NCBI GenBank assembly: GCA_965228735.1
Contig: OZ245838.1
Span: forward strand, 4,096,001 to 4,160,000
Length of the DNA: 64,000 nucleotides
DNA from: Planctomycetota bacterium
GTDB lineage: Bacteria > Planctomycetota > UBA1135 > UBA2386
Reading direction: 5' to 3'
Under the pieces are notes generated by a model. It was not told the origin of the DNA. It did no database searches and was given only the letters and a program-made list of their open reading frames with translations. Shown here piece by piece: positions 7,502-32,285 of this stretch. The position numbers and the translations under genes are program-made. Each line of letters opens with the position of its first letter. The stretch's first letter is position 1.

Positions 7502-7570
7502 CGTCTCCTCACTCCGGGTTCACGCTTCGTTGGCGCTGTCGCGCCGAGGTATATGGACTGCGGGTGCCGT

Positions 7571-8011: not shown

Positions 8012-8017
8012 GGCTCA

Positions 8018-8374: not shown

Positions 8375-8400
8375 TCTCTCTCTACCTGGGCAACGCCTGC

Positions 8401-8427
8401 ATCGGCAGTTCGCCGTGTCCGCCTTGA
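8401..8427 (-). promoter_or_regulatory. Possible sigma28-like promoter upstream of flgB
   Basis: Minus strand reads TCAAG-N16-GCCGAT about 27 nt upstream of the flgB ATG; the spacer is slightly longer than canonical. Confidence 0.3.
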
Positions 8428-8514
8428 GACCGGCAGTTCGAGAGCCGCGACAATTCGGCAACCGCTGTCGAGAAATCCGACGCGCCCCCATCACGCGGTT
8501 ATGCTGCGTCGTTC

Positions 8515-9492
8515 ATGCCTGATTCCACCACGTCTCCGGAGCAGGAGGGTGATTTCGAGGTCTCACCGGACTTGCACGCCGATCTCGTCGCCTCGGTCCG
8601 CGACCTGTTGACGCAAGATCGGCCGGAGATCCCGCCACGCTTCCTCTACGACGAGCTCGGCTCGCGCCTGTTCGAGGTCATCACGGCCTTGCCGGACTAC
8701 TACCCGACGCGCACCGAAGCCGCGATCTGGCGCGATCACATCGCCGCGATCACGGCTGCCCGGCCCGTCGCCGGCTGCACGATGATCGATCTCGGCGCCG
8801 GCAATTGTCAGAAGGCCGCGTCGCTGTTCGATGCGGTCGAGCCCGCAGGCTACCTGGCAGTCGACGTCTCGGCCGACTTCCTCGAGGAAGCCCTCGCCCG
8901 GCTGCGGCTGAAGTTCCCGACCATCGAAATGATGGGCTACGGCGCCGACTTCTTCGAGAACCTCGAGCTGCCCGATATCCCGCAGGAGCGCCGCCTGTTC
9001 TTCTATCCCGGCTCGTCCATCGGCAACTTCACCCGCGACGGCGCGCTGCGCTTCCTCGAGTCCGTCCGCGCCCAGATGTGCGCCGACTCGACGCTGTGGA
9101 TCACCGCGGACCTCGACAAGGACCCAGCCGTGCTCGAGCGCGCGTACGACGACGAGCTCGGCGTCACGGCGGCGTTCAACAAGAACTCGCTCTATCACCT
9201 CAACGAGGTCGCCGGGACCGACTTCCGGCTCCCGGACTGGCAGCACGTCGCGTTCTACGACCGCGACAAGATGCGGATCGAGATGCACCTCGAGGCCGTC
9301 CGGGATGTCACCGTGTCGTGGCCCGGCGGCAGCCGCGAGTTCGAGAAGGGCAACCGGATGCACACCGAGAACTCGCACAAGAACACCGTCGCGACGTTCA
9401 ACGAGCTGCTGCAGCAGGCCGGGCTCCGGACGGTCCAGCACTGGACCGACGAACGCGACTGGGTCGGCTTCTTCGTCGCGGCGCCGGCGTGA
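8515..9492 (+). CDS. egtD: L-histidine N-alpha-methyltransferase EgtD
   Basis: YDELGSRLFEVIT.LPDYYPTRTE, DLGAG, GSSIGNF, AYDD..GVTAAFN, RIEMHL, HTENSHK. Confidence 0.93.
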   Translation: MPDSTTSPEQEGDFEVSPDLHADLVASVRDLLTQDRPEIPPRFLYDELGSRLFEVITALPDYYPTRTEAAIWRDHIAAITAARPVAGCTMIDLGAGNCQKAASLFDAVEPAGYLAVDVSADFLEEALARLRLKFPTIEMMGYGADFFENLELPDIPQERRLFFYPGSSIGNFTRDGALRFLESVRAQMCADSTLWITADLDKDPAVLERAYDDELGVTAAFNKNSLYHLNEVAGTDFRLPDWQHVAFYDRDKMRIEMHLEAVRDVTVSWPGGSREFEKGNRMHTENSHKNTVATFNELLQQAGLRTVQHWTDERDWVGFFVAAPA

Positions 9493-10754
9493 GCAAGGGG
9501 CGCGAGCGCTCCCGCACCGGCGGGTCGCCGCGCGGGCTGCGCGGCGAGGCGCTCGTCCTCGCCCTGCGAGCGGCGCGCGAGCGCACGCTGGCGGCCGTGA
9601 ACGACCTCGACGACGCGCAGTGGCGCGTGCCGTTCGACCCCGGCATCCAGCCCGTGGCGTGGGACCTAGCGCACGTCGGCTGGTTCGCCGAGTTCTGGAT
9701 GCTCCGCGGGCCGCACCGAATCGCGCACGACGGCATCGTCCGCGCCGACCGCGGTGCGCGGCTCTTGCCGCCCGACGAGCACTATGACTCCGCGCAGATC
9801 GACCACCGCGACCGCTGGCAGATCGCGCTCTATCCCCGCGCGACGCTCCTCGAACGCCTCGCCGATCAGCTCGAGGCGTGCTGCCAACATGCACGATCAA
9901 CAACTGGCGGCGACGAACTGTGGAGTGCACGCATGAGCCTCTACCACGAGTGCATGCACCACGAGGCGTTGCTCTGGACGCGCGATCGCCTCGGTTACCC
10001 GGCAGTCGATGGCTACGCGATGCCGGCGCGGCCATCCCGAGGTGGCGACGACCGCGGGCTCCCCCTCGATGGCGGCGTGCAGGAACTCGGTCGCGACCCC
10101 GCGCACGAGTTCGCGTTCGACAACGAACAGCCACTCTCACGCCATCGCATCGCCCCGTTCCGCATCGACCGCACGCTCGTGACCAACGGTCAGTTCCTCG
10201 AGTTCGTCACTGCTGGCGGCTACCGCGAACCGCGCTACTGGATGGGCCCGGCCGCGACCTACCGCGCGCGCATCGAGCGCGAGCACCCGGAGCGTTGGCG
10301 CCGGGCCGGCGGCCAGCAGGACGGCAACGAGTTCGAACACCGCTGGTTCGCCGAATGGCGCCCGCTCGCGCTCGACGAGCCGATCTGCCACCTCAGCGCG
10401 TTCGAGGCCGAAGCCTACTGCGCGTTCCGTGGCCGCCGCCTGCCGAGCGCGGCCGAATGGGAACACGCGGCCGCGGTCACGGCGAACACCGAGAACACCG
10501 CGCACGGGGCGAGCGCGGACTTCGATTGGGGTGGCACGGTGTGGGAGTGGACGTCGACCCCGTTCGCGCCGTATCCGTTCTTTCGGCCTGGTCCGTACAC
10601 GACCTACTCCGCGCCGTGGTTCGGGAGCCAGCGCGAGACCCGCGGCGGCGCGTTCGCAACCGACCCGCTGCTCCACGACCGCGCCTACCGCAACTTCTTC
10701 CTGCCGTTTCGCACCGACGTCTTCACCGGCTTTCGCACGGCAGTGGACGGGTAA
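9489..10754 (+). CDS. EgtB/SenA-family non-heme iron enzyme (DinB-like plus FGE-sulfatase domains), SenA-like motifs
   Basis: GTG at 9489 overlaps the egtD stop. WDLAHVGWF and HECMH give the His triad; FAFDNE, RLPSAAEWE, VWEWT, YRNFF...GFRT also present. Confidence 0.85.
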   Translation: MSKGRERSRTGGSPRGLRGEALVLALRAARERTLAAVNDLDDAQWRVPFDPGIQPVAWDLAHVGWFAEFWMLRGPHRIAHDGIVRADRGARLLPPDEHYDSAQIDHRDRWQIALYPRATLLERLADQLEACCQHARSTTGGDELWSARMSLYHECMHHEALLWTRDRLGYPAVDGYAMPARPSRGGDDRGLPLDGGVQELGRDPAHEFAFDNEQPLSRHRIAPFRIDRTLVTNGQFLEFVTAGGYREPRYWMGPAATYRARIEREHPERWRRAGGQQDGNEFEHRWFAEWRPLALDEPICHLSAFEAEAYCAFRGRRLPSAAEWEHAAAVTANTENTAHGASADFDWGGTVWEWTSTPFAPYPFFRPGPYTTYSAPWFGSQRETRGGAFATDPLLHDRAYRNFFLPFRTDVFTGFRTAVDG

Positions 10755-10775
10755 CGCGGAGGTCCAACGCGCCCG

Positions 10776-13055
10776 CTACGCGGGCAGCGGCAGAGGCTGC
10801 GGCGCACCGGCGGAAACCGGCAACCCGACCGCCGATGCCGGCGCCGACGCGGCCACGAGGGGCACGATGGGTTCGCTGCACTCCCGACCCTGCGCCGACA
10901 GACAACCCGCGAGCCGTTCGATGGCGGCTGCAGCGTCACTCCACCGGAACCGCTCGCGCACGGCAGCCGCGTTCGACTGCGCCGTCGCAGTTCGCGCCGG
11001 CAGGTCGCGCAGCGTCTCGACGAGCAACCGAGCCGCCGCATCGGGGTCGGGCTCGAGCACCCAGGGCGTGCCCACGTGCGAGCCGGGCAACTCGAGCTCA
11101 CGACGGGTCGCCGGGATCGGCCACGCGCCAGGCACTTCGAGCATCGCATCCGCGCCGCCACCGGACGTCGTGATCACCGGCAGACCGACCACTCGAGCCT
11201 CGAGGACGGGCAGCCCGAAGCCCTCACCGCGATACGGATGCAGCAACACGTCGCAGGCGCGGTAGAGCCCGGCGAGCTCCCGCCGCGCGAGCGGTGCGTC
11301 GACGACGTGCAGCGGCGGTGTTCCCGCGGTGTCGCGGAACCGCTCGATCAAGTCGCCGAGATGGAACTGACCGTAGTGCCGATCGCGACCGACCGACTTC
11401 ACGACGACGACGAAGTCGAGCCCCGCGGCGCGCGCCGCGAGCACGGTGCGCATGAACACGTCGAAGCCCTTGCGCCACACGAGCCCGCCGCAGAACAGCA
11501 CCGCGGGCCGGTCCCCCTTCCATTGGACCAGGTCAGCAGCCGGCGCGACGTTCTGGTGCATCACTTCGTCGACGCCGTGCGGCACGAGCGCGATCGTCGC
11601 CGGATCCCGCCCGGCAGCAGCAACGCAATCGCGAACGTGCGCGCTGTGCACGACCACGACGTCGGCGTCCTGCGTCACGTGCGGCGTGAGATCGACCGGC
11701 AACGCGCCGTATTCCCAATCGACGCGCAAACCGAACACGCGACAGTCGGGGCGGTCGACGCGCGGCGGCCAGCCGGCCGCGAGCCACAGGTCGGCGCGGC
11801 CCGGCTGCCGCGACAGGCACGACTCGAGTTCGGGAGCACGCCGCCGGAACGCCGCGAGCCCGTGCTCGAACGGCCCCCGCGGCACCAGCCGCAGATCGAC
11901 GTTGCCGCGTTGCTGCAGCGCCCGCGCGGTCTCGATCGTGAGTTCGGCGCTCGACGAGGTCTCGAAGAACGGTGCCTCGAGCACGACGACCGGTCTCGTA
12001 TCACCGAGCGCCCGCGGCACCGCCGGCGCCGGTGCCGGTCGCCCGCGAACGAAGTTCTCCACGACGTGCCGCCGCCCGCGATCGCCGACCATCGCGCCGC
12101 CGCGCCCGAACGCCGCTTCCACGGCCGCGATCAGCGCATCGACATCGGGCTCGAAGCGGTCGCCGGTTCGCGTGCCACCGATCCGGCTCGCGACACCCGG
12201 CACCGCGATGGCCGGGGCGGCCGATGGGCTCGCGCTCACGCATACCGGGCGGCCGCTCGCGAGCCACTGGATGAGTTCTTCGGCCGCGGGCACGGCGCGC
12301 GCGGGCACCAGGATCGCAGCCGCGTCGACGCAGTGCTCGGGCCCGAATCGACCGCGGACGATGTCGACCTTGCCGGGCGACAGCCGGGCCCGCTGCAGCA
12401 GTTGCGCCGCCCGTTCGCCCGCCACTCCGAGGTCGACGGCGTCCTCCGGCCAGACGATGCGCAGCCTACGATCCGCTCGCGCGAGCCCCGCCGCCCATGC
12501 CGCCAGCACGAGATCGGTGCCGCCGCGGTCCACGTCATACGCCGAATGAACGATCGTGTCGCGCGGGCCGTCGCTCGGAATCGCGAGCCACGGCGCTATC
12601 CGCGCCTCACTGGCGGCGCCCGCGGGCGCGTCGTTGCCGCCCCAGCGCAGCTCGCCGAGCACCCGGTCCAGCACATCGACGGGCGCCCGGCTCGGCGCGG
12701 CCGCGAGCACGACACAGGCCCGGGGCCACTCGAGGCCAGCGAGGCGCGTGGCGTCGTCGAGGACGGACTCCGCCCCGAACACCACGAGCGGCGCGGTGCT
12801 CGCCACCGGCGTATCCGCCGCGCGCATGAGCAGCTGGATCTCGGCTGCCGGCAGGCGGGTGCCCACCTCGAGGTCGCGCACACCGTCCGTCAGCGGAATC
12901 GCGGTCTCACCCGCGAGCGGCGGCCGCGTCCGCACCGCGCCGAGCGCCAGCGAACACTGCAGCCCAGAGCCGTTCGCCAGACGCAGGAAGGTGCGCAGGA
13001 GGTTCGCCGCCGCATCCTCCCCGAAGGGATCGCCGTAGATGCGAACGTGGCTCAT
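10776..13055 (-). CDS. Multi-domain glycosyltransferase, family 4 (GT-B)
   Basis: C-terminal WRKGFD and DVLLHPYRGEGFGLPVLEA motifs; the N-terminal half looks like a degenerate GT-B domain. Confidence 0.8.
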   Translation of the reverse strand: MSHVRIYGDPFGEDAAANLLRTFLRLANGSGLQCSLALGAVRTRPPLAGETAIPLTDGVRDLEVGTRLPAAEIQLLMRAADTPVASTAPLVVFGAESVLDDATRLAGLEWPRACVVLAAAPSRAPVDVLDRVLGELRWGGNDAPAGAASEARIAPWLAIPSDGPRDTIVHSAYDVDRGGTDLVLAAWAAGLARADRRLRIVWPEDAVDLGVAGERAAQLLQRARLSPGKVDIVRGRFGPEHCVDAAAILVPARAVPAAEELIQWLASGRPVCVSASPSAAPAIAVPGVASRIGGTRTGDRFEPDVDALIAAVEAAFGRGGAMVGDRGRRHVVENFVRGRPAPAPAVPRALGDTRPVVVLEAPFFETSSSAELTIETARALQQRGNVDLRLVPRGPFEHGLAAFRRRAPELESCLSRQPGRADLWLAAGWPPRVDRPDCRVFGLRVDWEYGALPVDLTPHVTQDADVVVVHSAHVRDCVAAAGRDPATIALVPHGVDEVMHQNVAPAADLVQWKGDRPAVLFCGGLVWRKGFDVFMRTVLAARAAGLDFVVVVKSVGRDRHYGQFHLGDLIERFRDTAGTPPLHVVDAPLARRELAGLYRACDVLLHPYRGEGFGLPVLEARVVGLPVITTSGGGADAMLEVPGAWPIPATRRELELPGSHVGTPWVLEPDPDAAARLLVETLRDLPARTATAQSNAAAVRERFRWSDAAAAIERLAGCLSAQGRECSEPIVPLVAASAPASAVGLPVSAGAPQPLPLPA

Positions 13056-16000: not shown

Positions 16001-16075
16001 GAGCGCCGCAGTCTACTCGACATCAACTCGGGCTCGCGATACGTTGCGGGATCCCGTCCCCCGCCTCTCTGTCTC

Positions 16076-17596
16076 ATGTCGGAAGTTGCCTGGTTCAGCG
16101 CTGGCGCAGTCGTTGCGGCCGCCGTTGCCTGGAGCATCGGTCGCTGGCGCGCAGGCGACGAGAATCGGCGCCGGATGCGAAGCTCGATCCAGGTCGACGC
16201 CGACGGCATCGCGGCGGACCGCCGGGCAAGCGCGAGCCAGACCGTCGATCGACCCGTTGGCGAAGACGCGCTCGGCGAGGGTGCACGCCATCTCGTTGAT
16301 GAACGGCTGGCTGATGAACGGCTGGCTGATGAACGGCTGGCTGATGAACGGCTGGCTGGCAAGAACGGTCCGGACGCGGCAGCGCCGGTCGTCGACCTGC
16401 AGCAGTTCTCGGACCCAGGGCCGAACGGCGATTTCGACGGCGAACGCAGCGACGATCACGACACGCCACACGCGCTGTCGATCGACGCAACACCGCCCGA
16501 CGACGTCGACGGCCCACGCGTCGCACGTTCCGTCGCTCGCGAGATCGCCGACGTCGCGTCCGCCGTCGAAGGCAGCGCGTTCGACCTCGTCGAGGCTGCC
16601 CCCGAACCAGAGCGGGTGCCGCGCGCGGCCGAACGCTTCCTCGGCGCCGTGCAGCGACTCCGCGATCTGCACGCCAAGCTCGTGTCGTACGGCACGGAAG
16701 CGTCGCCGAGTGACGGCACTGCCGACTTCCGCGAGGTCGTAGACGGGCTCAAGGAAGAACTGCAGCACCTCCGACTCGGACTCGAGCTCGACACGGAGCT
16801 CCCGGCGAATCTGCCCGTGCTCGCGTGCAGCCCGAGTATCGCGCGCAACATCCTGCTCTTCGCGTGCTCGGCGATGTTCCGATCCGAACCCGGGGCGACC
16901 AACCTGACGATCTCCGCGGAACGCTCGCTCGTCGAGAACGAGCCGCGCCTCCGAATCGAGATGCTGCTCGAATGGGTCGTGGATCCGCGTGACGGTGCGC
17001 ACCCGGCGCCGCACGAGTCCGACGTCGCGTTGGCGATCGAGGCCGCGCGCCGGCTGGCCGAAGGCCATGGCGGCAAGATCCGGATGGACCGGCCGGCCGA
17101 TCGGGTGATCCGGACGAGCTTGCGCCTGCCCGCGTCGGTGCGGCCGCAGGAGTCCGAGCCGGAGACCGGCGAATCACGCACGGGGGCCGTTCACGTCCGG
17201 GCGGGCGCAGCAGCGCAGCAGCACGACTTCGGCGGCGCGCTCGTCGTCGAGGCCGACCCCGACGTGCGGGCGATGCTGGCGCGCGAGCTGCGAGCCCGCG
17301 GTCGGGCCGTGTTCGCGTGCGCGGACGGCAGCTCCGCGCGCACGTTCCTCGAAGCGACCCCGCAGCGGTTCGAACTGCTCATCGTCGACCAGGAACATCG
17401 ACTCGAGGACCGCGACGCGCTCGGCGAGACGATCCGGCGCCTGACCCCGGAACTCAAGATCTGCGTTCTCGGCCCGGCGGCCCAGGCGGCGGCGAGCGAC
17501 ACGACCGAGCCCGCATGGCCCGAAGTCTGCCGCCTGCAGAAGCCGTTCGGCGTCCACGAACTGCGGCGCGCACTCGCCTCCGTTCTCGACGCTTGA
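16076..17596 (+). CDS. Membrane-anchored degenerate hybrid histidine kinase/receiver protein (pseudokinase)
   Basis: N-terminal TM; HisKA-like helix lacking His; degenerate HATPase region (HGGKI); C-terminal receiver (LVVEAD, LLIVD, LQKPF). Confidence 0.7.
   Translation: MSEVAWFSAGAVVAAAVAWSIGRWRAGDENRRRMRSSIQVDADGIAADRRASASQTVDRPVGEDALGEGARHLVDERLADERLADERLADERLAGKNGPDAAAPVVDLQQFSDPGPNGDFDGERSDDHDTPHALSIDATPPDDVDGPRVARSVAREIADVASAVEGSAFDLVEAAPEPERVPRAAERFLGAVQRLRDLHAKLVSYGTEASPSDGTADFREVVDGLKEELQHLRLGLELDTELPANLPVLACSPSIARNILLFACSAMFRSEPGATNLTISAERSLVENEPRLRIEMLLEWVVDPRDGAHPAPHESDVALAIEAARRLAEGHGGKIRMDRPADRVIRTSLRLPASVRPQESEPETGESRTGAVHVRAGAAAQQHDFGGALVVEADPDVRAMLARELRARGRAVFACADGSSARTFLEATPQRFELLIVDQEHRLEDRDALGETIRRLTPELKICVLGPAAQAAASDTTEPAWPEVCRLQKPFGVHELRRALASVLDA
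16298..16357 (+). repeat. Perfect 15-bp tandem repeat x4 (GATGAACGGCTGGCT), encodes (DERLA)4
   Basis: Read directly from the sequence. Confidence 0.95.
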
Positions 17597-21484: not shown

Positions 21485-23323
21485 ATGACGATCGAGATCC
21501 TCATCGTGCTCACCACGCTCGCCGCGGTGCTCACGCTGCTGATCGGCACGCGCATTCCGGCCGATGCGATCCTCGTTGCCGGGCTGACGCTGCTGCTCGC
21601 CGTGCCGGTCCCGGTCGACGGTGGCGTGCAGATCGGCATCGTGACGCTGGCGGACGGCGTGCAGGGCTTCGGCAACCCCGGCATGCTCGCGGTCGGCGCG
21701 CTGTTCGTCGTCGTCACGGGTCTTCGCGAGACGGGCGCGATCGACTGGATCGCGACGACGCTGCTCGGTCGGCCGCAGAACGAACGCTCCGCGATCGTGC
21801 GCGTCATGCTGCCGGTCGCCGCGATGAGCGCGTTCCTCAACAACACGCCCGTCGTCGCGATGATGATCCCGGCGATCCAGGACTGGAGCAAACGACTGCA
21901 GCTGGCCGCGTCGCGCCTGCTGATCCCGTTGAGCTACGCCGCGATCCTCGGCGGCACGTGCACGCTGATCGGCACGAGCACCAATCTCGTGGTGGCCGGC
22001 CTCGTCGCGGAGAACCCGACCATCCCCGACCTCGCCATGTTCGACCTGACCTGGGTCGGGCTGCCGTGTGCCGTGCTCTGCGGCGCGCTCGTCGTGTTCC
22101 TCGGCCCGCGGTTGCTGCCGAACCGCGCCGGCACCCTCGGCACCGGCGCTGCGGGCACCGCCGGCACCGCGAGCCTCGCCGACACCAAGGAGTACACCCT
22201 CGAGCTCGTCGTGCCGACCGGCAGCCCGCTCGCGGGCCGCAGTATCGACGAGGCCGGGCTGCGTCGATTGCCGGGGTGCTTCCTGATCGAGATCGAACGC
22301 GGGGGCGAGATCATCGCATCGGTCGGACCGCACCGCCGGCTCGAGGAAGGCGACCGTCTGTTGTTCGCCGGCGTCGTCGACTCGATCCGCGACCTCGTGA
22401 AGACGCGCGGGCTCGAACTCGCGACCGACCAGGTCTTCAAGCTCGACGCGCCGCGCTACAAGCGCCGACTGTTCGAGGCCGTCGTCGCGCCGACCTCGGA
22501 GCTCACGGGCACGACGATCCGCGCGGCCGGCTTCCGCAACCGCTTCGCCGGCGCCGTCATCGCCGTCGCGCGCAACGGCGAACGGGTGCGCGGGCGCCTC
22601 GGCGACATCCGGCTCAAGGGCGGTGATCTGTTGCTCGTCGAAGCCGAACCCAAGTTCGACGACCGCGCGAGCGCGTCCGGCGACTTCCTGCTCGTGCGGT
22701 CGCTCGAGGACTCGACGCCGCGCCAGCATGCGCGCGCGCCGCTCGCCGTGCTGATCCTGCTCACGATGGTCGTGCTCGTGACGACCGGCGTCTATCCGAT
22801 GCTGGTCGCCGCACTCCTCGCGGCCGGCGCCATGGTGCTGACGCGGTGCTCGACGCTCACGGTCGCGCGGCGCGCGATCGACTGGTCACTGCTGATCGTG
22901 ATCGGCGCATCGCTCGGCATCGGCGAAGCGATGTCCCAGAGCGGCGCGGCCGACTGGCTCGCAGGCTCGGTGCTCGCCCTGAGCGGCGGCAACGCGTGGC
23001 TCATGCTCGCGGCCGTCTACGCCACGACCGCGCTGCTCACCGCGGCGGTCAGCAACGCGGCCTCCGTCGCGCTCATGTTCCACATCGCGGTCGCGGGCGC
23101 GACGGCCCACGAGCTCGACCCGATGCCGTTCGTGATCGCCGTGATGATGGCCGGCTCCGCGAGCTTCGCGACGCCGATCGGCTACCAGACCAACCTCATG
23201 GTGTACGGCCCGGGTGGCTACACGTTCCGCGACTTCCTCCGCATCGGCGTGCCGGTCAACCTCGCGGCCGGCATCGGCACCGTGGCGCTGACGCCATGGG
23301 TGTTTCCGTTCCACCCACAATGA
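21485..23323 (+). CDS. SLC13/DASS permease with two TrkA-C domains (probable sulfate transporter)
   Basis: SAFLNNTPVVA, LGGTCTLIGTSTNL, SFATPIGYQTNLMVYGPGGY; sits beside cysQ and cysDNC. Confidence 0.88.
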   Translation: MTIEILIVLTTLAAVLTLLIGTRIPADAILVAGLTLLLAVPVPVDGGVQIGIVTLADGVQGFGNPGMLAVGALFVVVTGLRETGAIDWIATTLLGRPQNERSAIVRVMLPVAAMSAFLNNTPVVAMMIPAIQDWSKRLQLAASRLLIPLSYAAILGGTCTLIGTSTNLVVAGLVAENPTIPDLAMFDLTWVGLPCAVLCGALVVFLGPRLLPNRAGTLGTGAAGTAGTASLADTKEYTLELVVPTGSPLAGRSIDEAGLRRLPGCFLIEIERGGEIIASVGPHRRLEEGDRLLFAGVVDSIRDLVKTRGLELATDQVFKLDAPRYKRRLFEAVVAPTSELTGTTIRAAGFRNRFAGAVIAVARNGERVRGRLGDIRLKGGDLLLVEAEPKFDDRASASGDFLLVRSLEDSTPRQHARAPLAVLILLTMVVLVTTGVYPMLVAALLAAGAMVLTRCSTLTVARRAIDWSLLIVIGASLGIGEAMSQSGAADWLAGSVLALSGGNAWLMLAAVYATTALLTAAVSNAASVALMFHIAVAGATAHELDPMPFVIAVMMAGSASFATPIGYQTNLMVYGPGGYTFRDFLRIGVPVNLAAGIGTVALTPWVFPFHPQ

Positions 23324-23459
23324 CCGACGACGCCGGCGGCCTGGTGAATTCTCGGCGCTCGCGTGGATCGGTGGGATGATCTGTGAACAGTGGCGTTGCC
23401 GCATCGGGCGTTGGAGTTTGTACCTGGCACCGCACCCAACCCGTGATACGACTTTCGCG

Positions 23460-24305
23460 ATGACTGCCCCGACTGCGGATGAACTCCAGGCGCGCCTCGA
23501 CTTCGCGGCGCAGATCGCCGGTGAAGCCGGCCAACGGCTCAGCGGATTGCGGGCGAGCGGGCGTTGGGCGGACGAGAAGATTCTCGGCGACGTCGGCGAT
23601 CAGGCCGCGGACGGCTATCTGCAGGGCTATCTGCGTGGGCGCTATCCCGAGGACGGCATCCTGTCGGAGGAGACGAAGGACTCGCCCGAACGGCAGCAAC
23701 GGCGCTACACGTGGATCGTCGATCCGCTCGACGGCACGAAGGAGTACCGCACGCAGCGCCACGACTGGGCGGTGCACGTCGGCCTGTGCCTCGACGGGGA
23801 GCCGCTGCTCGGCGCGGTGGCGCTGCCGGGGGTCGGGCGCGTGATGCGGGGCATCTGCGCTGCGGGACACGTTCGGGCAGATGTCACGGTCACGGGCGAC
23901 GTCGCGGGCAAGGCGGATTGGCCGCGCGCGTTCGCCGGCGATTCGCACGAGGCCCCGCATGACGGACCGCTCCGCATCGCCGCGAGCCGGAGCCATACCC
24001 CGGACTGGATGACGCGCTTCGTCGACCACCTCGGCAACGCCGAACTCGTGCCGTCCGGCAGCGTCGGCTTCAAGGTCTCGCTGCTGCTGTTCGGCAAGGC
24101 CGACGTCTACGTCCACAAGACCGGCCTCAAGGAGTGGGACACGTGCGCGCCGGAGGCGATCGCCCGCGCCGCGGGCTGGGCCGTCTGCCGGCTCAGCGGC
24201 GAGGCCCAGCGTTACAACCAGGACAACCCGCGGAACGACGAGATCGCGGTGTGTCGCAAGGAGTTGCTGCCGCGGGTGCTCGAGAGCGTGCAGGCCGCGC
24301 TGTAG
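23460..24305 (+). CDS. cysQ: 3'(2'),5'-bisphosphate nucleotidase CysQ
   Basis: ILSEE, WIVDPLDGTKEY, SRSH, EWDTCA; start moved to ATG 23460. Confidence 0.85.
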   Translation: MTAPTADELQARLDFAAQIAGEAGQRLSGLRASGRWADEKILGDVGDQAADGYLQGYLRGRYPEDGILSEETKDSPERQQRRYTWIVDPLDGTKEYRTQRHDWAVHVGLCLDGEPLLGAVALPGVGRVMRGICAAGHVRADVTVTGDVAGKADWPRAFAGDSHEAPHDGPLRIAASRSHTPDWMTRFVDHLGNAELVPSGSVGFKVSLLLFGKADVYVHKTGLKEWDTCAPEAIARAAGWAVCRLSGEAQRYNQDNPRNDEIAVCRKELLPRVLESVQAAL

Positions 24306-24351
24306 TGGGCTTCTGTCCGACCCCGCACCGTGTCGATGACCGACTGACCCC

Positions 24352-25248
24352 ATGAGCTTCGTTCGCACCTACGACGCCGGCAACGCACCGCGCGGCATCT
24401 TCCGCCACCTGCGGGCGCTGCTCGGCTACCCGGCGCTGGTCTGGCAGAACCGGTTCCTGATCCACAACAGCTTCCGCCGCGAGCTCATGAGCCGCTGGCA
24501 CGGCTCGTTCCTCGGCGCGTTCTGGATGCTCGCGCAGCCGCTGTTCCAGTTCGCGATCTACTACTTCATCTTCGGCCTGCTGTTCGGCGAGCGCGGCACC
24601 GACAAGGCACCCGACGGTGCGTTCGCGGTCTACCTGTTCAGCGGCATCATCGTGTTCCACGCGCTGACCGAAGCGTCGAACAAGTGCGTGAGCATCATCG
24701 GCGCGAACGGCAACCTCGTGAAGAAGGTCGCGTTCCCGTCCGAGGCGCTCGTCATCCCCGTCACGATGATCTCGCTCGTGCTCTATCTCATCGGGGCGAT
24801 CGTCTGCCTCGTGATCGGGATGGCACTCGGGATCCTCGAACCGGGTCCGCTCCTGCTGATGCTGCCGGTCATCCTCGCCGTGCAGGCGGTGTTCACGATC
24901 GGCTTCGGACTGTTCCTCGCCAACCTCAACGTGTTCGTCCCCGACGTCGGACAGCTGTGGCGCATCATCTCGATGGCGTGGATCTTCCTGACGCCGGTGT
25001 TCTGGATGCCGGATCGGCTGGCCAACCTGCACGATCACGGGCTCGGGTTCGTCGAGACGATCGCGCGCTACGGCAATCCGGCGTTCTCGCTCGTCATGTG
25101 CCACCGCCTCGCGCTCGGGGGCACCAGCCCGATGCTCGGCGAGTTCTGGCCGCAGTTCGGCGTCTTCTGCGCCTGGGCGTTGTTCTTCCTCGTCCTCGGC
25201 TACACGACGTTCGTGAGCCAGAAAGAGAAGTACGCCGACATCGTCTGA
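24352..25248 (+). CDS. wzm: ABC-2 polysaccharide export permease (Wzm/RfbA-like)
   Basis: GSFLGAFW..AQPL, NLVKKVAFP, FLTPVFW, NP motif, C-terminal YADIV. Confidence 0.85.
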   Translation: MSFVRTYDAGNAPRGIFRHLRALLGYPALVWQNRFLIHNSFRRELMSRWHGSFLGAFWMLAQPLFQFAIYYFIFGLLFGERGTDKAPDGAFAVYLFSGIIVFHALTEASNKCVSIIGANGNLVKKVAFPSEALVIPVTMISLVLYLIGAIVCLVIGMALGILEPGPLLLMLPVILAVQAVFTIGFGLFLANLNVFVPDVGQLWRIISMAWIFLTPVFWMPDRLANLHDHGLGFVETIARYGNPAFSLVMCHRLALGGTSPMLGEFWPQFGVFCAWALFFLVLGYTTFVSQKEKYADIV

Positions 25249-25272
25249 CGCGCGCGACCGCCCAGAGAACGA

Positions 25273-26499
25273 CTACGACTGCGGCGCCGCGGCGCCCTCG
25301 TCGACCGTCCAGCGGTGGTCCTGCAGGAACAGGCCGATGTCCTTCGTCCGGTTCTTGATGATCAGGCACTGCTCCGCCGGTCGCTCGTGGAACCGGTGCA
25401 CGCCGTTCTCGTCGAACAGCCAGATCGGCAGCGTGAACTCACCCGACAGCAGGTTGACGCCGTCGTAGTGCAGCGTCACGTGGCCCTCGGCAAAGTCGAA
25501 CACGAGGTCGTGGAACTGCGTCGTGTGCGCGAAGCACAGCGTGCCGTCCGAACGCATCGCGCCGACCGCCATCGTCAGACGCTCGCGCTTCGGGTTCCTC
25601 ACGTGTACGCGGATCGCGACGTCGTCCCCCGGAGCGAACTCGTTGCGCAGCTCGCCGGTCTTGCCGTCGAGGATCTGCGCGCCGAGGATGCGCGGCGCGT
25701 CGTCACCGCGATTCTTCGCCTCCGGCTTGTCATCGTAGGCGACGTGATCGCCGCCGCCCGAGACCTTGTTCTCGTAGGTCGCGTACTCGTTGGTCACGGC
25801 GACCGAGTCGTCGAGCATCTCGATCTGCCCCTGCTTCATCCAGATGGCGCGGTCGCAGATCTGCCGCACGTCGTAGAGCGAGTGCGAGCAGAAGAACATC
25901 GAGCGCCCCTTGCGCTTGAAGTCCCAGATCTTCTCGACGCACTTGCGGCGGAAGTTCATGTCGCCGACCGAGAGGATCTCGTCGATGATCATCAGGTCCG
26001 GCTCCGTCGACATCGCGACGCTGAAGCCGAGGCGGGCGGCCATGCCGGACGAGTAGGTTCGCACGGGCGCGTTGATGAACTCGCCGAGCTCGCTGAACTC
26101 GATGATCTCGTCGACCTTCTTGCGAGCCTCCTTGCGCGAGAACCCCATGATCGCCGCGTTCATGAAGATGTTCTCGCGGCCCGTGAAGCTCTTGTGGAAG
26201 CCCGATCCGAGCTCGAGCAGGCTCGTGACGCGACCGCGAACCGTGTAGCGGCCGCGCGTCGGGAACGTCGTGCCGCTGAGCACCTTGAGCAACGTCGACT
26301 TGCCAGCACCATTGGTGCCGACGAGCCCCATGCACTCGCCCGGCTTGACGTCGAAGGACACGTTCTTCAGCGCGTGAATCGCACGATGCCGCGGCTTCTT
26401 GTTCCACGGCATCCGCTCGAGCAAGCGACCGTACGGGTTGCCATACAGCCGATACGTCTTGCTCAGGTCGAATGCTTCGATGACCGGTTCGGTCGCCAC
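25273..26499 (-). CDS. wzt: Polysaccharide export ATP-binding protein with C-terminal Wzt_C-like domain
   Basis: GTNGAGKSTLLK, LELGSGFH, YSSGM, IIDEILSVGD, plus a ~150-aa beta-rich C-terminal extension. Confidence 0.88.
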   Translation of the reverse strand: MATEPVIEAFDLSKTYRLYGNPYGRLLERMPWNKKPRHRAIHALKNVSFDVKPGECMGLVGTNGAGKSTLLKVLSGTTFPTRGRYTVRGRVTSLLELGSGFHKSFTGRENIFMNAAIMGFSRKEARKKVDEIIEFSELGEFINAPVRTYSSGMAARLGFSVAMSTEPDLMIIDEILSVGDMNFRRKCVEKIWDFKRKGRSMFFCSHSLYDVRQICDRAIWMKQGQIEMLDDSVAVTNEYATYENKVSGGGDHVAYDDKPEAKNRGDDAPRILGAQILDGKTGELRNEFAPGDDVAIRVHVRNPKRERLTMAVGAMRSDGTLCFAHTTQFHDLVFDFAEGHVTLHYDGVNLLSGEFTLPIWLFDENGVHRFHERPAEQCLIIKNRTKDIGLFLQDHRWTVDEGAAAPQS

Positions 26500-26502
26500 T
26501 TG

Positions 26503-28446
26503 TCAGCTCAGCAGGTTGCGGGAACGCAGGAACGCGAGGACCTTGTCGACGTTGGCATCGACGCCCTCGTTCACGGTATCCAACACGAGGTCCGGCTGCT
26601 TGCTCGGCTCGTACGGCGCATCGACGCCCGTGACGTTGGCGATCTCCCCGGCGCGGGCGCGGGCGTAGAGGCCGTCCTCGTCGCGCTGCTCGCAGACGTC
26701 CAGCGGCGCGTTGCAGAACACCTCGACGAACGCCTCGGAGTCCACGATCTCGCGCGCCTGCTGGCGCTCGAACTCGATCGGTGACACGAGTGCCACCACC
26801 GTGCTGACGCCGAGTCCGAGGTTGAGCCGCGCGATCTCCGCCGCCCGTCGCTGATTCTCCCAGCGGTCCGCGCCGGAGAAGCCGAGGTCGCGGTTGATGC
26901 CGAGACGCAGGATCTCGCCGTCGAGCACCTGCACGTGCTTCTGCTCGTCGAACAGCTTCTGCTCGAGCGCGTAGGCGATCGACGACTTGCCCGACCGCGG
27001 CAAACCCGTGATCCAGAGCACGAACGGCTCCTGGCCGAGGCGCTGCCGGCGCGCCTCCGGCGTGACCTGCCGTTTCTTCTGCAGCCGCACGTTGCTGCCC
27101 GCGTCGGCGCTCTTCTGCCGGCGACCCGTCGTCTCGTCGGCCGTCTTGCGCTCGACGATCATCGCCGCGCCGACCGTCGCGTTGGTCAACCGATCGATGA
27201 GGATGAACGAGCCCATGCCGCGGTTCTTGACGTAGGCGTCGGCGGCGAGCGGCCGGCTGCACTCGACGCGAATGCGGCCGACCTCGTTCATCTCGAGCTT
27301 GCTCGCTTCCTCACGGTGCAGGTCACCGACGTTGATCCGGTAGCGGATGTCCGAGACGACGGCCGGCGTTGACGACGTCGCGTGCTTGACGAGGTACTGC
27401 TTGCCCACCTGCAGCGCGGCCTCGTCGAACCAGACGATCATCGCCTCGACGGCGTTACTCAGGGACGGCGCGTTCTTCGGCGACACGATCACGTCACCGC
27501 GGCTCGCATCGATCTCGTCCTCGAGCGTGACCGTCACGGCCATCGACGCGAACGCCTCCTCGAGATCACCGTCGTAGGTGACGATCGACTTGACCTTGCT
27601 CTGCTTGCCCGACGGCACGACGGCGATCGGATCCCCGACGCGCAACACACCCGACGCGATCGTCCCGGCGAAGCCGCGGAAGTCGAGGTTCGGCCGCACG
27701 ACGCGCTGCACCGGCAGGCGCAGATCGACGAGGTTGCGATCGCTCGCGAGGTGCACCGTCTCGAGGTGATCGAGCAACGGCGAACCCTGGAACCACGGCA
27801 TGCTGTCGCCGCGGTGCACCACGTTCTCGCCCTTGAGCGCCGACATCGGGATGAAGTGGATGTCGCGCACCTGCAGGCGCGCCGCGAACTCGCTGTAGTC
27901 GTCGCGGATCTCCTGGAAGCGGTCCTCGCTGTAGTCGACGAGGTCCATCTTGTTGATCGCGACGACGAAGTGCTGGATGCCCAGCAGCGCGCAGATGAAC
28001 GAGTGCCGCCGCGTCTGCTCGAGCACGCCGTGGCGCGCGTCGATGAGGATCACCGCGAGGTCGCAGTTGCTCGCGCCCGTCGCCATGTTGCGCGTGTATT
28101 GCACGTGCCCCGGCGTGTCCGCGATGATGAACTTGCGCGACTCGGTCGCGAAGTAGCGATACGCCACGTCGATCGTGATGCCCTGCTCACGCTCGGCCTG
28201 CAGCCCGTCGACGAGCAGCGCGAGGTCGACCTCTTCGCCCGTCGTGCCGAACTTGGCGGTCGCCTTCTTGGTCGCGGCCAACACGTCGTCGAAGACGAGC
28301 TGGCTGTCGAAGAGCAACCGGCCGATGAGCGTCGACTTGCCGTCGTCGACGCTGCCGCACGTCAGCAACCGCAGCATGCCGCGATCGCCGTAGCGCTCGA
28401 GGTAGCCCTCGATGCCGTGTTGATCGATCTCGCTCTGGTAGGACAT
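26503..28446 (-). CDS. cysN: Sulfate adenylyltransferase large subunit fused to an APS kinase-like domain (CysN/CysC)
   Basis: TCGSVDDGKSTLIGRL, AEREQGITIDVAYRYF, DTPGH, NKMD; C-terminal APS kinase-like domain. Confidence 0.95.
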   Translation of the reverse strand: MSYQSEIDQHGIEGYLERYGDRGMLRLLTCGSVDDGKSTLIGRLLFDSQLVFDDVLAATKKATAKFGTTGEEVDLALLVDGLQAEREQGITIDVAYRYFATESRKFIIADTPGHVQYTRNMATGASNCDLAVILIDARHGVLEQTRRHSFICALLGIQHFVVAINKMDLVDYSEDRFQEIRDDYSEFAARLQVRDIHFIPMSALKGENVVHRGDSMPWFQGSPLLDHLETVHLASDRNLVDLRLPVQRVVRPNLDFRGFAGTIASGVLRVGDPIAVVPSGKQSKVKSIVTYDGDLEEAFASMAVTVTLEDEIDASRGDVIVSPKNAPSLSNAVEAMIVWFDEAALQVGKQYLVKHATSSTPAVVSDIRYRINVGDLHREEASKLEMNEVGRIRVECSRPLAADAYVKNRGMGSFILIDRLTNATVGAAMIVERKTADETTGRRQKSADAGSNVRLQKKRQVTPEARRQRLGQEPFVLWITGLPRSGKSSIAYALEQKLFDEQKHVQVLDGEILRLGINRDLGFSGADRWENQRRAAEIARLNLGLGVSTVVALVSPIEFERQQAREIVDSEAFVEVFCNAPLDVCEQRDEDGLYARARAGEIANVTGVDAPYEPSKQPDLVLDTVNEGVDANVDKVLAFLRSRNLLS

Positions 28447-29354
28447 CAGAAGTAGCCCTCCCGCTTCTTCTCTTCCATCGAGCCGGCTTCGTCGTAGTCG
28501 ATGACGCGCCCCTGGCGCTCGCTGTCCTTGCTGCGCAGCATCTCCTCGATGATCTTCGGCAGCGTGTCGGCGTCCGACTCGATCGCGCCCGTGAGCGGGT
28601 AGCAGCCGAGCGTGCGGAACCGGACCATCTTCATCTCCGGCTCCTCACCGTCCTCGAGCGGCAGGCGCTCGTCGTCGACCATGATCCACGTGCCGTTGCG
28701 CTGCACGACCGGCCGCTCCTTGGCGAAGTAGAGCGGCACCATCGGCAGGTTCTCCTGGTAGATGTAGAGCCAGACGTCGAGTTCGGTCCAGTTGCTGAGC
28801 GGGAAGACGCGGATCGACTCGCCCTTGTTCACGCGGCAGTTGAACACGTTCCAGAGCTCGGGGCGCTGGTTCTTCGGGTCCCACTGGTGGAACTTGTCGC
28901 GGAAGCTGAAGATCCGCTCCTTCGCGCGACTCTTCTCCTCGTCGCGCCTGGCACCGCCGAACGCCGCGTCGTACTCGCCGGCATTGAGCGCCTGCTTGAG
29001 CGCCTCGGTCTTCATCACGTGCGTGTGCCGCTGGGTGCCATGCGTGAACGGGCCGATGCCCTGCTCGACGCCTTCCTGATTGATCCACTCGACGAAGTCG
29101 AGATCGAGGTCCTGCACGAGCTTGTCGCGGAACTCGATCATCTCGCGGAACTTCCACGTCGTGTTGACGTGCAGCACCTTGAACGGGATGCGATCCGGCG
29201 CGAACGCCTTCTCGGCGAGGCGCAGCATCACGCCCGAGTCCTTCCCGATGGAGTAGAGCATCACCGGGTTGTCGAACTCGGCCGCGACCTCCCGCATGAT
29301 GTGGATGCTCTCCTGCTCCAGTTGGCGCAGGTGGCTGAGGGCATACTTCGTCAT
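28446..29354 (-). CDS. cysD: Sulfate adenylyltransferase small subunit CysD
   Basis: [50 protein letters not shown]; start ATG 29354. Confidence 0.96.
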
Positions 29355-29367
29355 AGTTCGGTCGTCG

Positions 29368-29982
29368 TCACTCCGTTGGCGCCCGCAGCAACCCGCGCTG
29401 CTCGAGCAGTTGTTCGACTGCGCTCGCCGATTCCGCGAGCTCCTGCACACCCGTGTCGATGCGCAGCTCGGGGTTCTCCGGCGCTTCGTAGGGCGAGCTG
29501 ATGCCGGTGAATTCCGGGATCTCGCCGGCCCGCGCCTTCTGGTAGAGCCCCTTGGGGTCGCGCGATTCGCAGACCGCGAGGTCGGCGTCGACGTGCACCT
29601 CGACGAAGTCGTCGCCGACGAGCTCGCGCACCTGCGCCCGGTCGCTGCGGAACGGCGAGATGAACGCGGTCAGCACGATCGCGCCGGCATCGGCGAACAG
29701 CGCCGCGACATGGCCGATGCGCCGGATGTTCTCGACCCGCCCGGCATCGGAGAAGTCGAGGTCGGCGCAGAGGCCGTGCCGGATGTTGTCACCGTCGAGC
29801 ACGTAGACGAGCCGGCCCGCTGCATGGAGCCGTTCTTCGAGCGCCCGCGCGACCGTCGACTTGCCCGAGCCGGACAGGCCCGTGAACCACACCACCGCGC
29901 CGCGCTGCCCGAGCAGTCGCTCCCGATCGGCGCGGGACACGACGCCATCGTGGCGTTTGATATGGCGAGGAGGAGTCGGCAT
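29368..29982 (-). CDS. cysC: Adenylyl-sulfate kinase CysC
   Basis: [43 protein letters not shown]. Confidence 0.95.
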
Positions 29983-30239: not shown

Positions 30240-32285
30240 TCAGTCGACCCGAATCGGCGTGAACAGCGTCTCCGCGTTGCCCGCGCCGTAGCCCCAGGCC
30301 GTGACCGCCGTCCAGTCCGCGGGCAGCGGCACGGTGAGCGTCTTGCCCGCAGCCGTCGCGCGCGCCTCGTGCTTCTCGAAGTCGACCTCGAACACGACCT
30401 CGATCGGGGACCGACCGTCCCATTCGATCGGCAGGGTCTTCTTCTGCCGGAAGTTCTTCGGCCCGATGATGGTCAGCTCCCGGGAGCCGAACTGGATGCC
30501 GCCGCGCACGAGGTCGCGGCGCGGGTGGCCGCCGCTCAGCACGATGTAGCCGTTCTGCCGCAGGCGTCCGGGCAGCGGCGTCATCGTCGACCGGAAGCGC
30601 GTGCCCTTGGGGTCGTCCGTGCGGAGCAGGTAGCCGCCCGCGGTGTTGGCCCACAGCCCGATGCCCGCCTCACCGGCCATCGAACGCGCGACGCCCGCGG
30701 TGACATCGAAGCCCGGCAACAGCGAACCGGTGTCGTCGCCGTACTGCTCGCGCAGCTCCTGCAGCCGCCGCTTCAGCGCCTCGAACACCGCGGCGTAGGC
30801 CGGATCCTCGTGCACGCTGCGCAGCTCGTCCGGGTCCTTCTCGAGGTCGAACAGCTCCCAGTCGTTCCACTGCGGTTCGTAGTAGCGCACGAGCTTGTAG
30901 CGATCGGTGCGCACCCCGTAGTGCGCCGGGACCATGTGGACCGCGTGCGACTCGTAGTAGTGGTAGTAGAGCGCGTCGCGCCAGTCGTCGGGCTCCTCGC
31001 CGTCGAGCAGCGGCACGAGCGAGGTGCCGTGCATGTCATCGGGCGTCGCGATGCCGGCGAGATCGAGGAACGTCGGCGCGTAGTCGATGTTCTGCGTCAG
31101 CGACTCGACCTCGACACCTTCGGGCAGCTTGCCTGGCCACGACATCACGAGCGGCATGCGGAAGCTCTCCTCGTACATCCAGCGCTTGTCGTACCAGCCG
31201 TGGTCGCCGAGGTAGAAGCCCTGGTCCGAGCTGTAGACGACGATCGTGTTGGCCTTCACCTTCGGATGCGCATCGAGCCACGCGAGCAGCCGCCCGACGC
31301 TGCGGTCGACGCCGTTGACGCACCGCAGGTAGTTCTTGATGTAGCGCTGGTAGTACCACCGCAGCCGCTCCTTGCCCGTCGGCGGATCGGCCTGGAACGC
31401 GTCGTTCTCGGCCATGAACGCCGCGTCCCACGTCTTCTTCTGCGCGGGCGTGAGGCGCTTCATCATGTTGTCGAAGGCCCGATCAGGCCCCTGCAGACCG
31501 GCCGCACGCTGCGCGTCGGTCGGCGGCACCATGAGGTCGTAGTGCAGGTACATGTGCTCGACGAGCGTCATCTCCTGGTGCTTCGCGCCCTCGGTGCGAC
31601 CCGCGTAGTCGTCGAACAGCGTCGCCGGCTCCGGCAGCGTCTCGCCCTGATAGAGCGGCAGGTCCTCAGGTGCAGGCATCCAACTGCGATGCGGCGCCTT
31701 GTGCTGGCACATCAACAGGAACGGCTTGTCCGGGTCGCGCCCGTCGAGCCACTCGATCGCGAGATCGGTCGTGATGTTGGTCGCGTGACCTTCGATGCGA
31801 ACGCGGCCTTCGGGCGTCTTGAAGTCCGGGTTGTAGTACTGCCCCTGCCCCGGCAGCACGATCCAGTGATCGAACCCCTGCGGGTCCGACGTCAGGTGCC
31901 ACTTGCCGATCATCGCCGTCTGGTAGCCCGCCCTCTGCAGCATCTTCGGCATCGTCGGCTGGTTGCCGTCGAACGTGTTGCCGTTGCGCATGAAGCCATT
32001 CTCGTGGCAGTGCTTGCCCGTGAGGATCGTCGCGCGCGACGGACCGCAGATGGAGTTGCCGCAGAAGTTGTTGCGGAACAGGAGGCCCGCGTTCGCGATG
32101 CGGTCGATGTTCGGCGTCTCGTTGATCCCCGAGCCGTAGGCGCTGATCGCGTGCGCGGCGTGGTCATCGCTGAAGATGAACACGATGTTGGGGCGGGTGC
32201 CGGAGAGCGGCCGCTGTGCGATCGCACAACCGGCCGTGACCGGAACGGCGATCGCCGCGGCGAGGACGAGCTGGAGGCGGGTCAT
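30240..32285 (-). CDS. Secreted Cys-type formylglycine-dependent sulfatase with an extra C-terminal domain
   Basis: PNIVFIFSDDH, CGPSRATILTG (CxPxR), GKWHL, SSDQG, DKRWMYEES; start ATG 32285 with signal peptide. Confidence 0.92.
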   Translation of the reverse strand: MTRLQLVLAAAIAVPVTAGCAIAQRPLSGTRPNIVFIFSDDHAAHAISAYGSGINETPNIDRIANAGLLFRNNFCGNSICGPSRATILTGKHCHENGFMRNGNTFDGNQPTMPKMLQRAGYQTAMIGKWHLTSDPQGFDHWIVLPGQGQYYNPDFKTPEGRVRIEGHATNITTDLAIEWLDGRDPDKPFLLMCQHKAPHRSWMPAPEDLPLYQGETLPEPATLFDDYAGRTEGAKHQEMTLVEHMYLHYDLMVPPTDAQRAAGLQGPDRAFDNMMKRLTPAQKKTWDAAFMAENDAFQADPPTGKERLRWYYQRYIKNYLRCVNGVDRSVGRLLAWLDAHPKVKANTIVVYSSDQGFYLGDHGWYDKRWMYEESFRMPLVMSWPGKLPEGVEVESLTQNIDYAPTFLDLAGIATPDDMHGTSLVPLLDGEEPDDWRDALYYHYYESHAVHMVPAHYGVRTDRYKLVRYYEPQWNDWELFDLEKDPDELRSVHEDPAYAAVFEALKRRLQELREQYGDDTGSLLPGFDVTAGVARSMAGEAGIGLWANTAGGYLLRTDDPKGTRFRSTMTPLPGRLRQNGYIVLSGGHPRRDLVRGGIQFGSRELTIIGPKNFRQKKTLPIEWDGRSPIEVVFEVDFEKHEARATAAGKTLTVPLPADWTAVTAWGYGAGNAETLFTPIRVD

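What the first reader, a model, noticed from the sequence alone, without database searches (positions are those of the whole stretch)
21485..29982. Sulfate-activation genes interleaved with a convergently split Wzm/Wzt exporter: candidate sulfated-glycan system
Seen: SLC13-cysQ-wzm on the plus strand meets wzt-cysNC-cysD-cysC on the minus strand; the wzm and wzt stops are 24 bp apart and wzt starts 3 bp after the cysN stop. No cysH/cysI/cysJ is present in the window. Knowledge: wzm and wzt are normally co-directional neighbours; CysDNC makes PAPS and CysQ removes PAP, the sulfotransferase by-product; Wzt C-terminal domains recognise terminal modifications of glycans. Inference: the locus supplies PAPS for a sulfated surface polysaccharide, and this Wzt C-domain might recognise a sulfate cap.
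Basis: partly seen in the sequence, partly recalled or inferred. Interest (0 to 1): 0.7.

Follow-up and report, generated by a model that had tools for sequence, protein, structure and literature searches.

The report
Glycan exporter relocated beside sulfate activation
In an uncultured planctomycete that lacks the genes to reduce sulfate, the only sulfate-activation genes sit beside a sugar-chain exporter that has left its ancestral operon, which likely marks a sulfated surface polysaccharide, a known kind of product, while a sulfate 'cap' read by the exporter looks unlikely.

Summary
Observation confirmed. cysC-cysD-cysNC is the genome's only sulfate-activation route; no cysH or sulfite reductase was found, but nine sulfotransferases were, so PAPS can likely only feed sulfation. 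The Wzm/Wzt pair has orthologs in 55 of 61 related genomes. In 33 it lies inside a conserved glycosyltransferase/de-N-acetylase operon. In 20 it lies elsewhere, and that operon has lost it wherever the site is visible (17). The move happened in two separate lineages (AU p=1.1e-6), and 19 of the 20 moved pairs lie beside cys or sulfotransferase genes. A second, exporter-less glycosyltransferase cluster, with three sulfotransferases here, adjoins the locus in four relatives. Best reading (0.6): a PAPS-supply and export hub for a dispersed, probably sulfated surface glycan, like Cobetia/Vibrio sulfated-capsule loci but using Wzm/Wzt. The sulfate-cap idea is poorly supported: the conserved C-domain residues are kept in 17 genomes without any sulfation genes, no sulfotransferase family is shared, and none carries a coiled-coil ruler. 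Gene orientation varies three ways, so the convergent split carries little meaning. The scan had noted only this same stretch before.

The parts
21485..23323 (+). SLC13/CitMHS-type permease with two TrkA-C domains; likely sulfate importer (inferred from context)
   Evidence: PF03600, PF02080, PF00939; TIGR00785 below cut-off; the 4 close orthologs (65-78%) among 60 relatives all lie in this locus, as do two at 41-42%
23460..24305 (+). CysQ-like inositol-monophosphatase-family enzyme; likely PAP 3'-phosphatase
   Evidence: PF00459; best NCBIfam hit TIGR01331, below cut-off; metal-binding motifs intact; two relatives carry a different PF00459 enzyme at the locus instead
24352..25248 (+). wzm, ABC-2 glycan export permease; ortholog of the permease of the ancestral glycosyltransferase operon
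   Evidence: PF01061; orthologs and synteny
25273..26499 (-). wzt, ABC ATPase with a C-terminal Wzt_C beta-sandwich (about residues 266-400); the only Wzt_C match in the genome
   Evidence: PF00005, PF14524; profile match to A. aeolicus Wzt E=2e-101; AF2 model pLDDT 87; VIA-align Z 30.8 to 7k2t, rmsd 9.4, 358 aligned; Atlas 0.95 to Wzt_C clusters
26503..28446 (-). cysNC, ATP sulfurylase large subunit fused to an APS-kinase-like domain with non-canonical motifs
   Evidence: NF004035 921 bits, cut-off 715; motifs
28446..29354 (-). cysD, ATP sulfurylase small subunit; the genome's only PF01507 match
   Evidence: TIGR02039 506 bits, cut-off 397
29368..29982 (-). cysC, stand-alone APS kinase with canonical motifs
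   Evidence: TIGR00455 253 bits, cut-off 139
30240..32285 (-). sulfatase upstream of cysC; probably incidental, kept at this place only in one same-genus genome among those fetched
   Evidence: PF00884, PF16347; synteny
10776..13055 (-). GT4 glycosyltransferase whose ortholog lies directly upstream of SLC13/cysQ in three relatives; possible part of the locus
   Evidence: ortholog is GT4 by Pfam; best hits 35-54%; gene order

Best explanation
The locus holds the genome's only sulfate-activation genes next to a Wzm/Wzt exporter displaced from a conserved glycosyltransferase operon, and it likely serves as the PAPS-supply and export hub of a surface glycan that is probably sulfated as a variable decoration rather than as an export signal. 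Shown: gene content, lack of reduction genes, orthology of the exporter, its loss from the core operon (C1:6707946-6715653: lipoprotein, five GT2, one GT4, one PIG-L de-N-acetylase), and an exporter-less accessory cluster (C1:7008631-7037802) with nucleotide-sugar genes, 11 glycosyltransferases and three sulfotransferases. Inferred steps: SLC13 imports sulfate; CysD/CysN make APS and CysC makes PAPS; the core and accessory enzymes build a lipid-linked glycan; sulfotransferases add sulfate in the cytoplasm; CysQ removes PAP; Wzm/Wzt flips the glycan, with the C-domain reading a feature common to the whole order. The final form is most likely an LPS O-polysaccharide (inferred). The same PAPS pool likely also serves Wzx-linked polysaccharides.
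For: No cysH, sulfite reductase or Sat in the genome; 9 PF13469 matches. Across 61 genomes ATP sulfurylase and sulfotransferases co-occur: 38 both, 19 neither, 2 and 2 discordant. The moved exporter is beside cys genes in 17 of 20 genomes and beside a sulfotransferase-family gene in 2 more. Two lineages are separate clades, each sister to operon-linked exporters; holding them together is rejected, p-AU 1.1e-6. All 20 genomes with the moved pair have ATP sulfurylase and sulfotransferases, against 14 of 33 with ATP sulfurylase among operon-linked ones. Sulfotransferases lie next to wzm in G008, G004, G012. Orthologs of accessory-cluster genes adjoin the locus in G003, G018, G005, G008. Sulfotransferases lie in the accessory cluster here and in 7 of 16 relatives fetched, including a GT2-sulfotransferase fusion in G006, and in none of the 3 fetched genomes without PAPS genes. 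The cluster has a GT2-coiled-coil-GT4 protein, a marker of ABC-dependent assembly (PMC11231755, passages). No KpsS/KpsC match; lpxC present.
Against: No sulfotransferase lies in the window. 17 of 33 genomes with the intact operon have no ATP sulfurylase and no PF13469 match, so the core glycan does not need sulfate. Five operon-linked genomes of the same family keep cysCDN as a free-standing operon in unrelated contexts. G001 (same genus) shows no sulfotransferase in its accessory cluster, and G007 has the moved pair beside neither gene type. Two of this genome's sulfotransferases lie beside Wzx-type flippase genes. That the accessory cluster uses this exporter rests on synteny and on its lack of an exporter; the genome has a second wzm/wzt pair at 1.65 Mb. 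Kin are not independent: the linkage rests on two landing events. No chemistry or expression data.
Confidence: 0.6

Rival explanations
1. The genes share an envelope neighbourhood, but the exported glycan is unsulfated. PAPS goes to Wzx/Wzy exopolysaccharides, lipids or small molecules, and Wzm/Wzt keeps exporting the ancestral core-operon glycan.
For: The core operon and exporter persist in 17 genomes without sulfation genes. Sulfotransferases lie beside Wzx-type genes at 4.63-4.65 Mb and 2.55 Mb, and four others lie in no evident glycan context. No sulfotransferase in the window or in the core operon.
Against: Two separate landings beside sulfation genes; sulfotransferases inserted beside wzm in three relatives; a GT2-sulfotransferase fusion in the accessory cluster; the genes stay together through three orientations.
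Confidence: 0.26
2. The Wzt C-domain reads a terminal sulfate cap, as other Wzt domains read methyl, phosphomethyl or Kdo caps.
For: The A. aeolicus methyl pocket is replaced (L300 to G313, T346 to P358, A348 to W360, H350 to F362; with PMC9445017). Basic residues H368, R369, R373, R384, K386 could form an anion site. R373 is in 16 of 20 moved Wzt against 3 of 17 from genomes without PAPS genes, and G033/G028 share R305, K/R307 and R373 with the other lineage.
Against: In the 17 genomes without sulfation genes D363 and R369 and H368 are kept in 17, K/R386 in 16 and R384 in 14; R373 is already present in two of the three nearest operon-linked relatives; net C-domain charge is negative in all groups (means -3.7, -4.9, -3.1). 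No sulfotransferase family is shared by the cys-linked genomes. No tested sulfotransferase has a coiled coil, while the GT proteins do (crude scorer).
Confidence: 0.1
3. cysC-cysD-cysNC is an assimilatory sulfate-reduction operon and the exporter is a chance neighbour.
For: cysDNC, cysQ and a permease are usual parts of assimilatory operons (established knowledge).
Against: No cysH-like strong PF01507 match beyond CysD in 61 genomes; PF01077 in 2 of 61 and not here.
Confidence: 0.03

Closest known systems
Sulfated capsule locus of Cobetia marina KMM 1449 (PMC11766843, passages read)
   Same: cysNC, cysD, cysQ and a sulfate permease lie beside an ABC glycan exporter, between oppositely oriented export operons; the polysaccharide is shown to be sulfated.
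   Different: There the exporter is KpsDMTE with KpsSC, and GT and sulfotransferase genes are in the same cluster. Here it is Wzm/Wzt with a C-domain, KpsS/KpsC is not found, and biosynthesis is spread over three loci.
Sulfated capsule locus of Vibrio sp. KMM 8419 (PMC11641403, passages read)
   Same: cysC, cysN, cysD and sulfotransferases with an ABC exporter; the authors call PAPS plus sulfotransferase genes in a glycan cluster a hallmark of sulfated polysaccharide.
   Different: Those are second copies of the cys genes; here they are the only copies and no reduction pathway is found.
Cap-reading Wzm/Wzt O-antigen exporters (A. aeolicus, PMC9445017; K. pneumoniae O3/O4/O5/O7/O12, PMC11231755; passages read)
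   Same: Wzm permease, Wzt ATPase, C-terminal beta-sandwich, hinge tyrosine kept (Y239 invariant), and a coiled-coil GT protein in the likely partner cluster.
   Different: Methyl-cap pocket residues are replaced; wzm and wzt are split in orientation and detached from their GT genes; the coiled-coil protein carries only GT domains.

Membership tests
Wzm/Wzt ABC glycan exporter with C-terminal binding module | ABC-2 permease plus Wzt-type ATPase | tested here: met
Wzm/Wzt ABC glycan exporter with C-terminal binding module | C-terminal Wzt_C beta-sandwich | tested here: met
   PF14524 26.7 bits, below the 30.4 cut-off, but all-beta in the model, aligned to A. aeolicus Wzt through residue 364, Atlas 0.95
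A. aeolicus-type methyl-cap readers | pocket Leu300, Thr346, Ala348, His350, Trp362 | tested here: not met
   G313, P358, W360, F362 at four positions; the Trp362 counterpart lies beyond the alignment and was not assigned
Sulfate-cap polymerase-terminator system (hypothetical) | terminating enzyme (a sulfotransferase) at the end of a coiled-coil ruler | tested here: not met
   no coiled-coil segment in any sulfotransferase scored; segments found in GT proteins (home-made approximate scorer)
Sulfate-cap polymerase-terminator system (hypothetical) | binding-site residues specific to genomes that can sulfate | tested here: inconclusive
   core residues shared with 17 genomes without PAPS genes; R373 and R305/R307 enriched in moved copies; no pocket geometry could be measured
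Sulfate-cap polymerase-terminator system (hypothetical) | export requires the cap | not testable with these tools
   needs mutants
Cobetia/Vibrio-type sulfated capsule loci | PAPS genes, cysQ and permease beside an ABC glycan exporter | tested here: met
Cobetia/Vibrio-type sulfated capsule loci | Kps-type export and Kdo priming (KpsS/KpsC) | tested here: not met
   no PF05159 match; KpsM model 23.5 bits against cut-off 300; KpsE not tested
Cobetia/Vibrio-type sulfated capsule loci | sulfotransferases and GTs in the same cluster | tested here: not met
   not in this window; present in the locus of G008, G004, G012
Cobetia/Vibrio-type sulfated capsule loci | product chemically shown to be sulfated | not testable with these tools
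   no isolate or chemistry
Assimilatory sulfate-reduction (cys) operon | APS/PAPS reductase and sulfite reductase | tested here: not met
CysQ (TIGR01331) | score over curated cut-off | tested here: inconclusive
   best hit but 103.9 against 228.8; motifs intact

The most novel reading that the evidence does not exclude
In two lineages of an uncultured planctomycete order the exporter of an ancient envelope glycan was recruited into a sulfation module that can also move between families (G060), and its C-domain has begun to read a sulfated terminal sugar, the first sulfate checkpoint on a glycan ABC exporter; with the operon's de-N-acetylase and, in some members, a sulfotransferase resembling the heparan N-sulfotransferase domain, the product could be N-sulfated.
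Probability: 0.1. Interest if true: 0.78.

Novelty: new variant of a known kind. Interest (0 to 1): 0.42.

Why it matters
It points to a probably sulfated, ABC-exported surface glycan in an uncultured planctomycete group, found here also in a macroalgal metagenome, whose members reduce no sulfate by any route detected and so seem to activate it only for sulfation. It names the three loci and the candidate sulfotransferases, which are testable enzymes for bacterial polysaccharide sulfation. The repeated relocation of one exporter from an order-wide operon to sulfation genes is a clean natural case of pathway re-wiring. The general pairing of PAPS genes with an ABC glycan exporter is already in print for Cobetia and Vibrio.

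Tried and rejected
Assimilatory role: rejected. Assembly artefact: rejected. One origin of the cys linkage: rejected; groups were named from neighbourhood, but after a first tree had been seen (whose careful search did not finish). Conserved cap-forming sulfotransferase: the heparan N-sulfotransferase-like family is in 7 of 61 genomes only. Searches of solved structures with the C-domain alone gave only ribosomal L19 noise. A scan of named genomes was swamped by generic ABC ATPases and gave no close relative. No RNA holder was listed. No sigma-70-like promoter was found; terminator-like sites 7 against 4.0 +/- 2.2 in shuffles. The c47 family beside wzt in G017/G009 has no Pfam or NCBIfam match; its sulfotransferase-like motif is recalled, not tested, and it is not counted as a sulfotransferase. 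The bioinformatic survey of Wzt binding modules and terminators (doi 10.1093/glycob/cwz066, seen only as a reference entry) is not held, so I cannot say whether it already proposes sulfate terminators. Seven literature searches (listings and abstract starts) showed no paper on this locus or on a sulfate-reading Wzt; most subscription papers are outside the library. No supplements were opened.
Full report
Observation. The seven genes, strands and gaps are as described. CysD, CysNC and CysC pass curated cut-offs; the CysQ, DASS and Wzt_C matches are best hits below cut-off. The genome is one contig of 7.19 Mb, 93% complete. Named homologs of Wzm are labelled Planctomycetes/Planctomycetota. Single contigs from 3 of 4 runs laid span the wzm/wzt junction.

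What the PAPS is for. The only PF01507 match in the genome is CysD itself. There is no PF01077 sulfite reductase and no Sat. There are 9 PF13469 sulfotransferase matches. In 61 genomes of the order, the strong PF01507 matches are the CysD copies, plus five weak hits at E 5e-6 or worse, and PF01077 is found in 2. ATP sulfurylase of either type and sulfotransferases co-occur: 38 genomes have both, 19 neither, 2 only the first, 2 only the second (tallied in 98). Kin are not independent and many assemblies are incomplete, but the inference that these cys genes serve sulfation is firm.

Where the exporter comes from. Full-length Wzt orthologs at 44% identity or more occur in 55 of 61 genomes. I fetched 60 regions around them and called genes with a home-made caller. 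In 33 genomes the order is lipoprotein, wzm, wzt, GT2, GT2, GT4, PIG-L de-N-acetylase, GT2 and more. In 20 the pair lies elsewhere; 2 could not be placed. This genome keeps the operon at C1:6707946-6715653 with the lipoprotein gene directly before the first GT2 and no wzm/wzt. The same gap is seen in 17 of the 20; 2 are cut by contig ends and 1 gave no match. So the window's pair is the displaced exporter of an order-wide glycan pathway.

Where it landed. Lineage A (14 genomes, this one included) has the pair beside cysC-cysD-cysNC: convergent in 11, co-directional as wzt-wzm in G013, divergent in G017 and G009. A cysQ-like gene is in the fetched locus in 12 of the 14 and SLC13 in 7. Lineage B (6 genomes) has wzm-wzt-cysC-cysD as one run in G033, G028 and G060, wzm-wzt-SGNH-sulfotransferase in G022 (PF13469 at cut-off) and its ortholog in G011, and neither in G007. 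On a Wzm+Wzt tree of 35 of the genomes, A (support 84) and B (99) each group with operon-linked relatives (99 each), and a tree holding them together is rejected (p-AU 1.1e-6). G060 belongs to another family but carries a B-type pair, and its native operon has lost wzm/wzt, which suggests transfer and replacement; mis-binning is not excluded. Against a tight link: five operon-linked relatives of B hold cysCDN as a free operon.

The likely glycan. A second cluster at C1:7008631-7037802 has UDP-glucose dehydrogenase and two epimerase-family genes (by orthology to Pfam-typed genes), 11 glycosyltransferases, a methyltransferase, an SGNH protein and three sulfotransferases, two with Stf0-family matches above cut-off, and no exporter. 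Its orthologs directly adjoin the cys/wzm/wzt locus in G003 and G018 (68-91% identity) and G005 and G008 (41-50%). Among 16 relatives whose matching cluster I fetched, 7 have sulfotransferases inside it, G006 as a GT2 fusion; the 3 without PAPS genes have none; G001, G033, G022, G017, G018 and G004 show none in regions that are partly cut. The cluster's large protein is GT2-coiled coil-GT4. Coiled-coil rulers mark ABC-dependent assembly (PMC11231755, passages). The second wzm/wzt pair at 1.65 Mb has a Wzt without C-domain and its own GT and methyltransferase genes. KpsS/KpsC is not found, lpxC is, and one of three PF04932 matches lies away from Wza genes, which favours an LPS O-polysaccharide; this is inference.

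The sulfate-cap idea. The C-domain is a real Wzt_C fold. The A. aeolicus methyl pocket (PMC9445017, passages) is replaced at four mapped positions; the alignment ends before Trp362. A basic patch exists, but H368, R369 and D363 are kept in all 17 Wzt from genomes with no ATP sulfurylase and no PF13469 match, and net charge is no less negative in the moved copies. If the patch binds an anion, phosphate or carboxylate fits its distribution better than sulfate (inference). The sulfotransferases vary from genome to genome and none scored has a coiled coil. In favour: R373 is in 16 of 20 moved copies against 3 of 17, and G033/G028 share R305, K/R307 and R373 with lineage A, but R373 is already in G024 and G025. 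I give the cap 0.1.

Comparison with what is known. Cobetia marina KMM 1449 has cysNC, cysD, cysQ and a sulfate permease between kpsDMTE and kpsSC and makes a sulfated capsule (PMC11766843, passages); Vibrio KMM 8419 is similar (PMC11641403, passages). The locus works like these but is not a Kps capsule locus. What is new here is the Wzm/Wzt exporter, the dispersed layout, the lack of any reduction pathway and the repeated relocation. The key survey of Wzt terminators was not available.

Verdict. Real and conserved; a new variant of a known kind; interest 0.42.

Noticed in passing
window 26503-27040 (C-terminal domain of CysNC): The fused APS-kinase domain departs from the canonical motifs (P-loop GLPR/A-type instead of [11 protein letters not shown] instead of DGDN) in the copies where the motifs were found among 15 examined, while all 12 stand-alone CysC are canonical; the fused domain may be inactive or regulatory.
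   Followed up: partly
G000:C1:6707946-6715653 (L102): An order-wide operon: BamC-like lipoprotein, GT2/GT4 genes and one or two PIG-L de-N-acetylases, normally with wzm-wzt and often after der; product unknown and conserved in most of 61 genomes.
   Followed up: partly
L158 (G012), L080 (G019), L081 (G054), L083 (G047), L084 (G038): Extra full-length wzt copies without wzm; in G012 and G019 they lie beside an unannotated protein family, in G012 also a radical SAM gene. Possible swap-in ATPases for modified glycans.
   Followed up: no
L063 and L159 (G060): A genome of another family carries a lineage-B wzm-wzt-cysC-cysD-cysNC run while its native operon lacks wzm/wzt: possible transfer with replacement.
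   Followed up: partly
whole order, 61 genomes: No cysH found and PF01077 in 2 of 61: the group seems unable to assimilate sulfate.
   Followed up: partly
L280:2381-3253 (G013), L286:10709-12673 (G006), G000:C1:5003670-5004467: A sulfotransferase family whose best solved match is the human heparan N-sulfotransferase domain (E 2e-9), in 7 of 61 genomes, fused to GT2 in G006.
   Followed up: partly
window 405-13055: Flagellar-like genes, an egtD/egtB-like pair and a GT4 lie left of the locus; the same neighbours flank it in G006 and G013. Flagellar names are from recalled motifs; the egt-like orthologs were typed by Pfam.
   Followed up: no
window 16013-16400: Short tandem amino-acid repeat (ADERL repeated) in the ORF at 16076-17596.
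   Followed up: no
G000:C1:1650052-1662396 (L103): Second wzm/wzt cluster with a C-domain-less Wzt, GT2, GT9 and methyltransferase genes.
   Followed up: no
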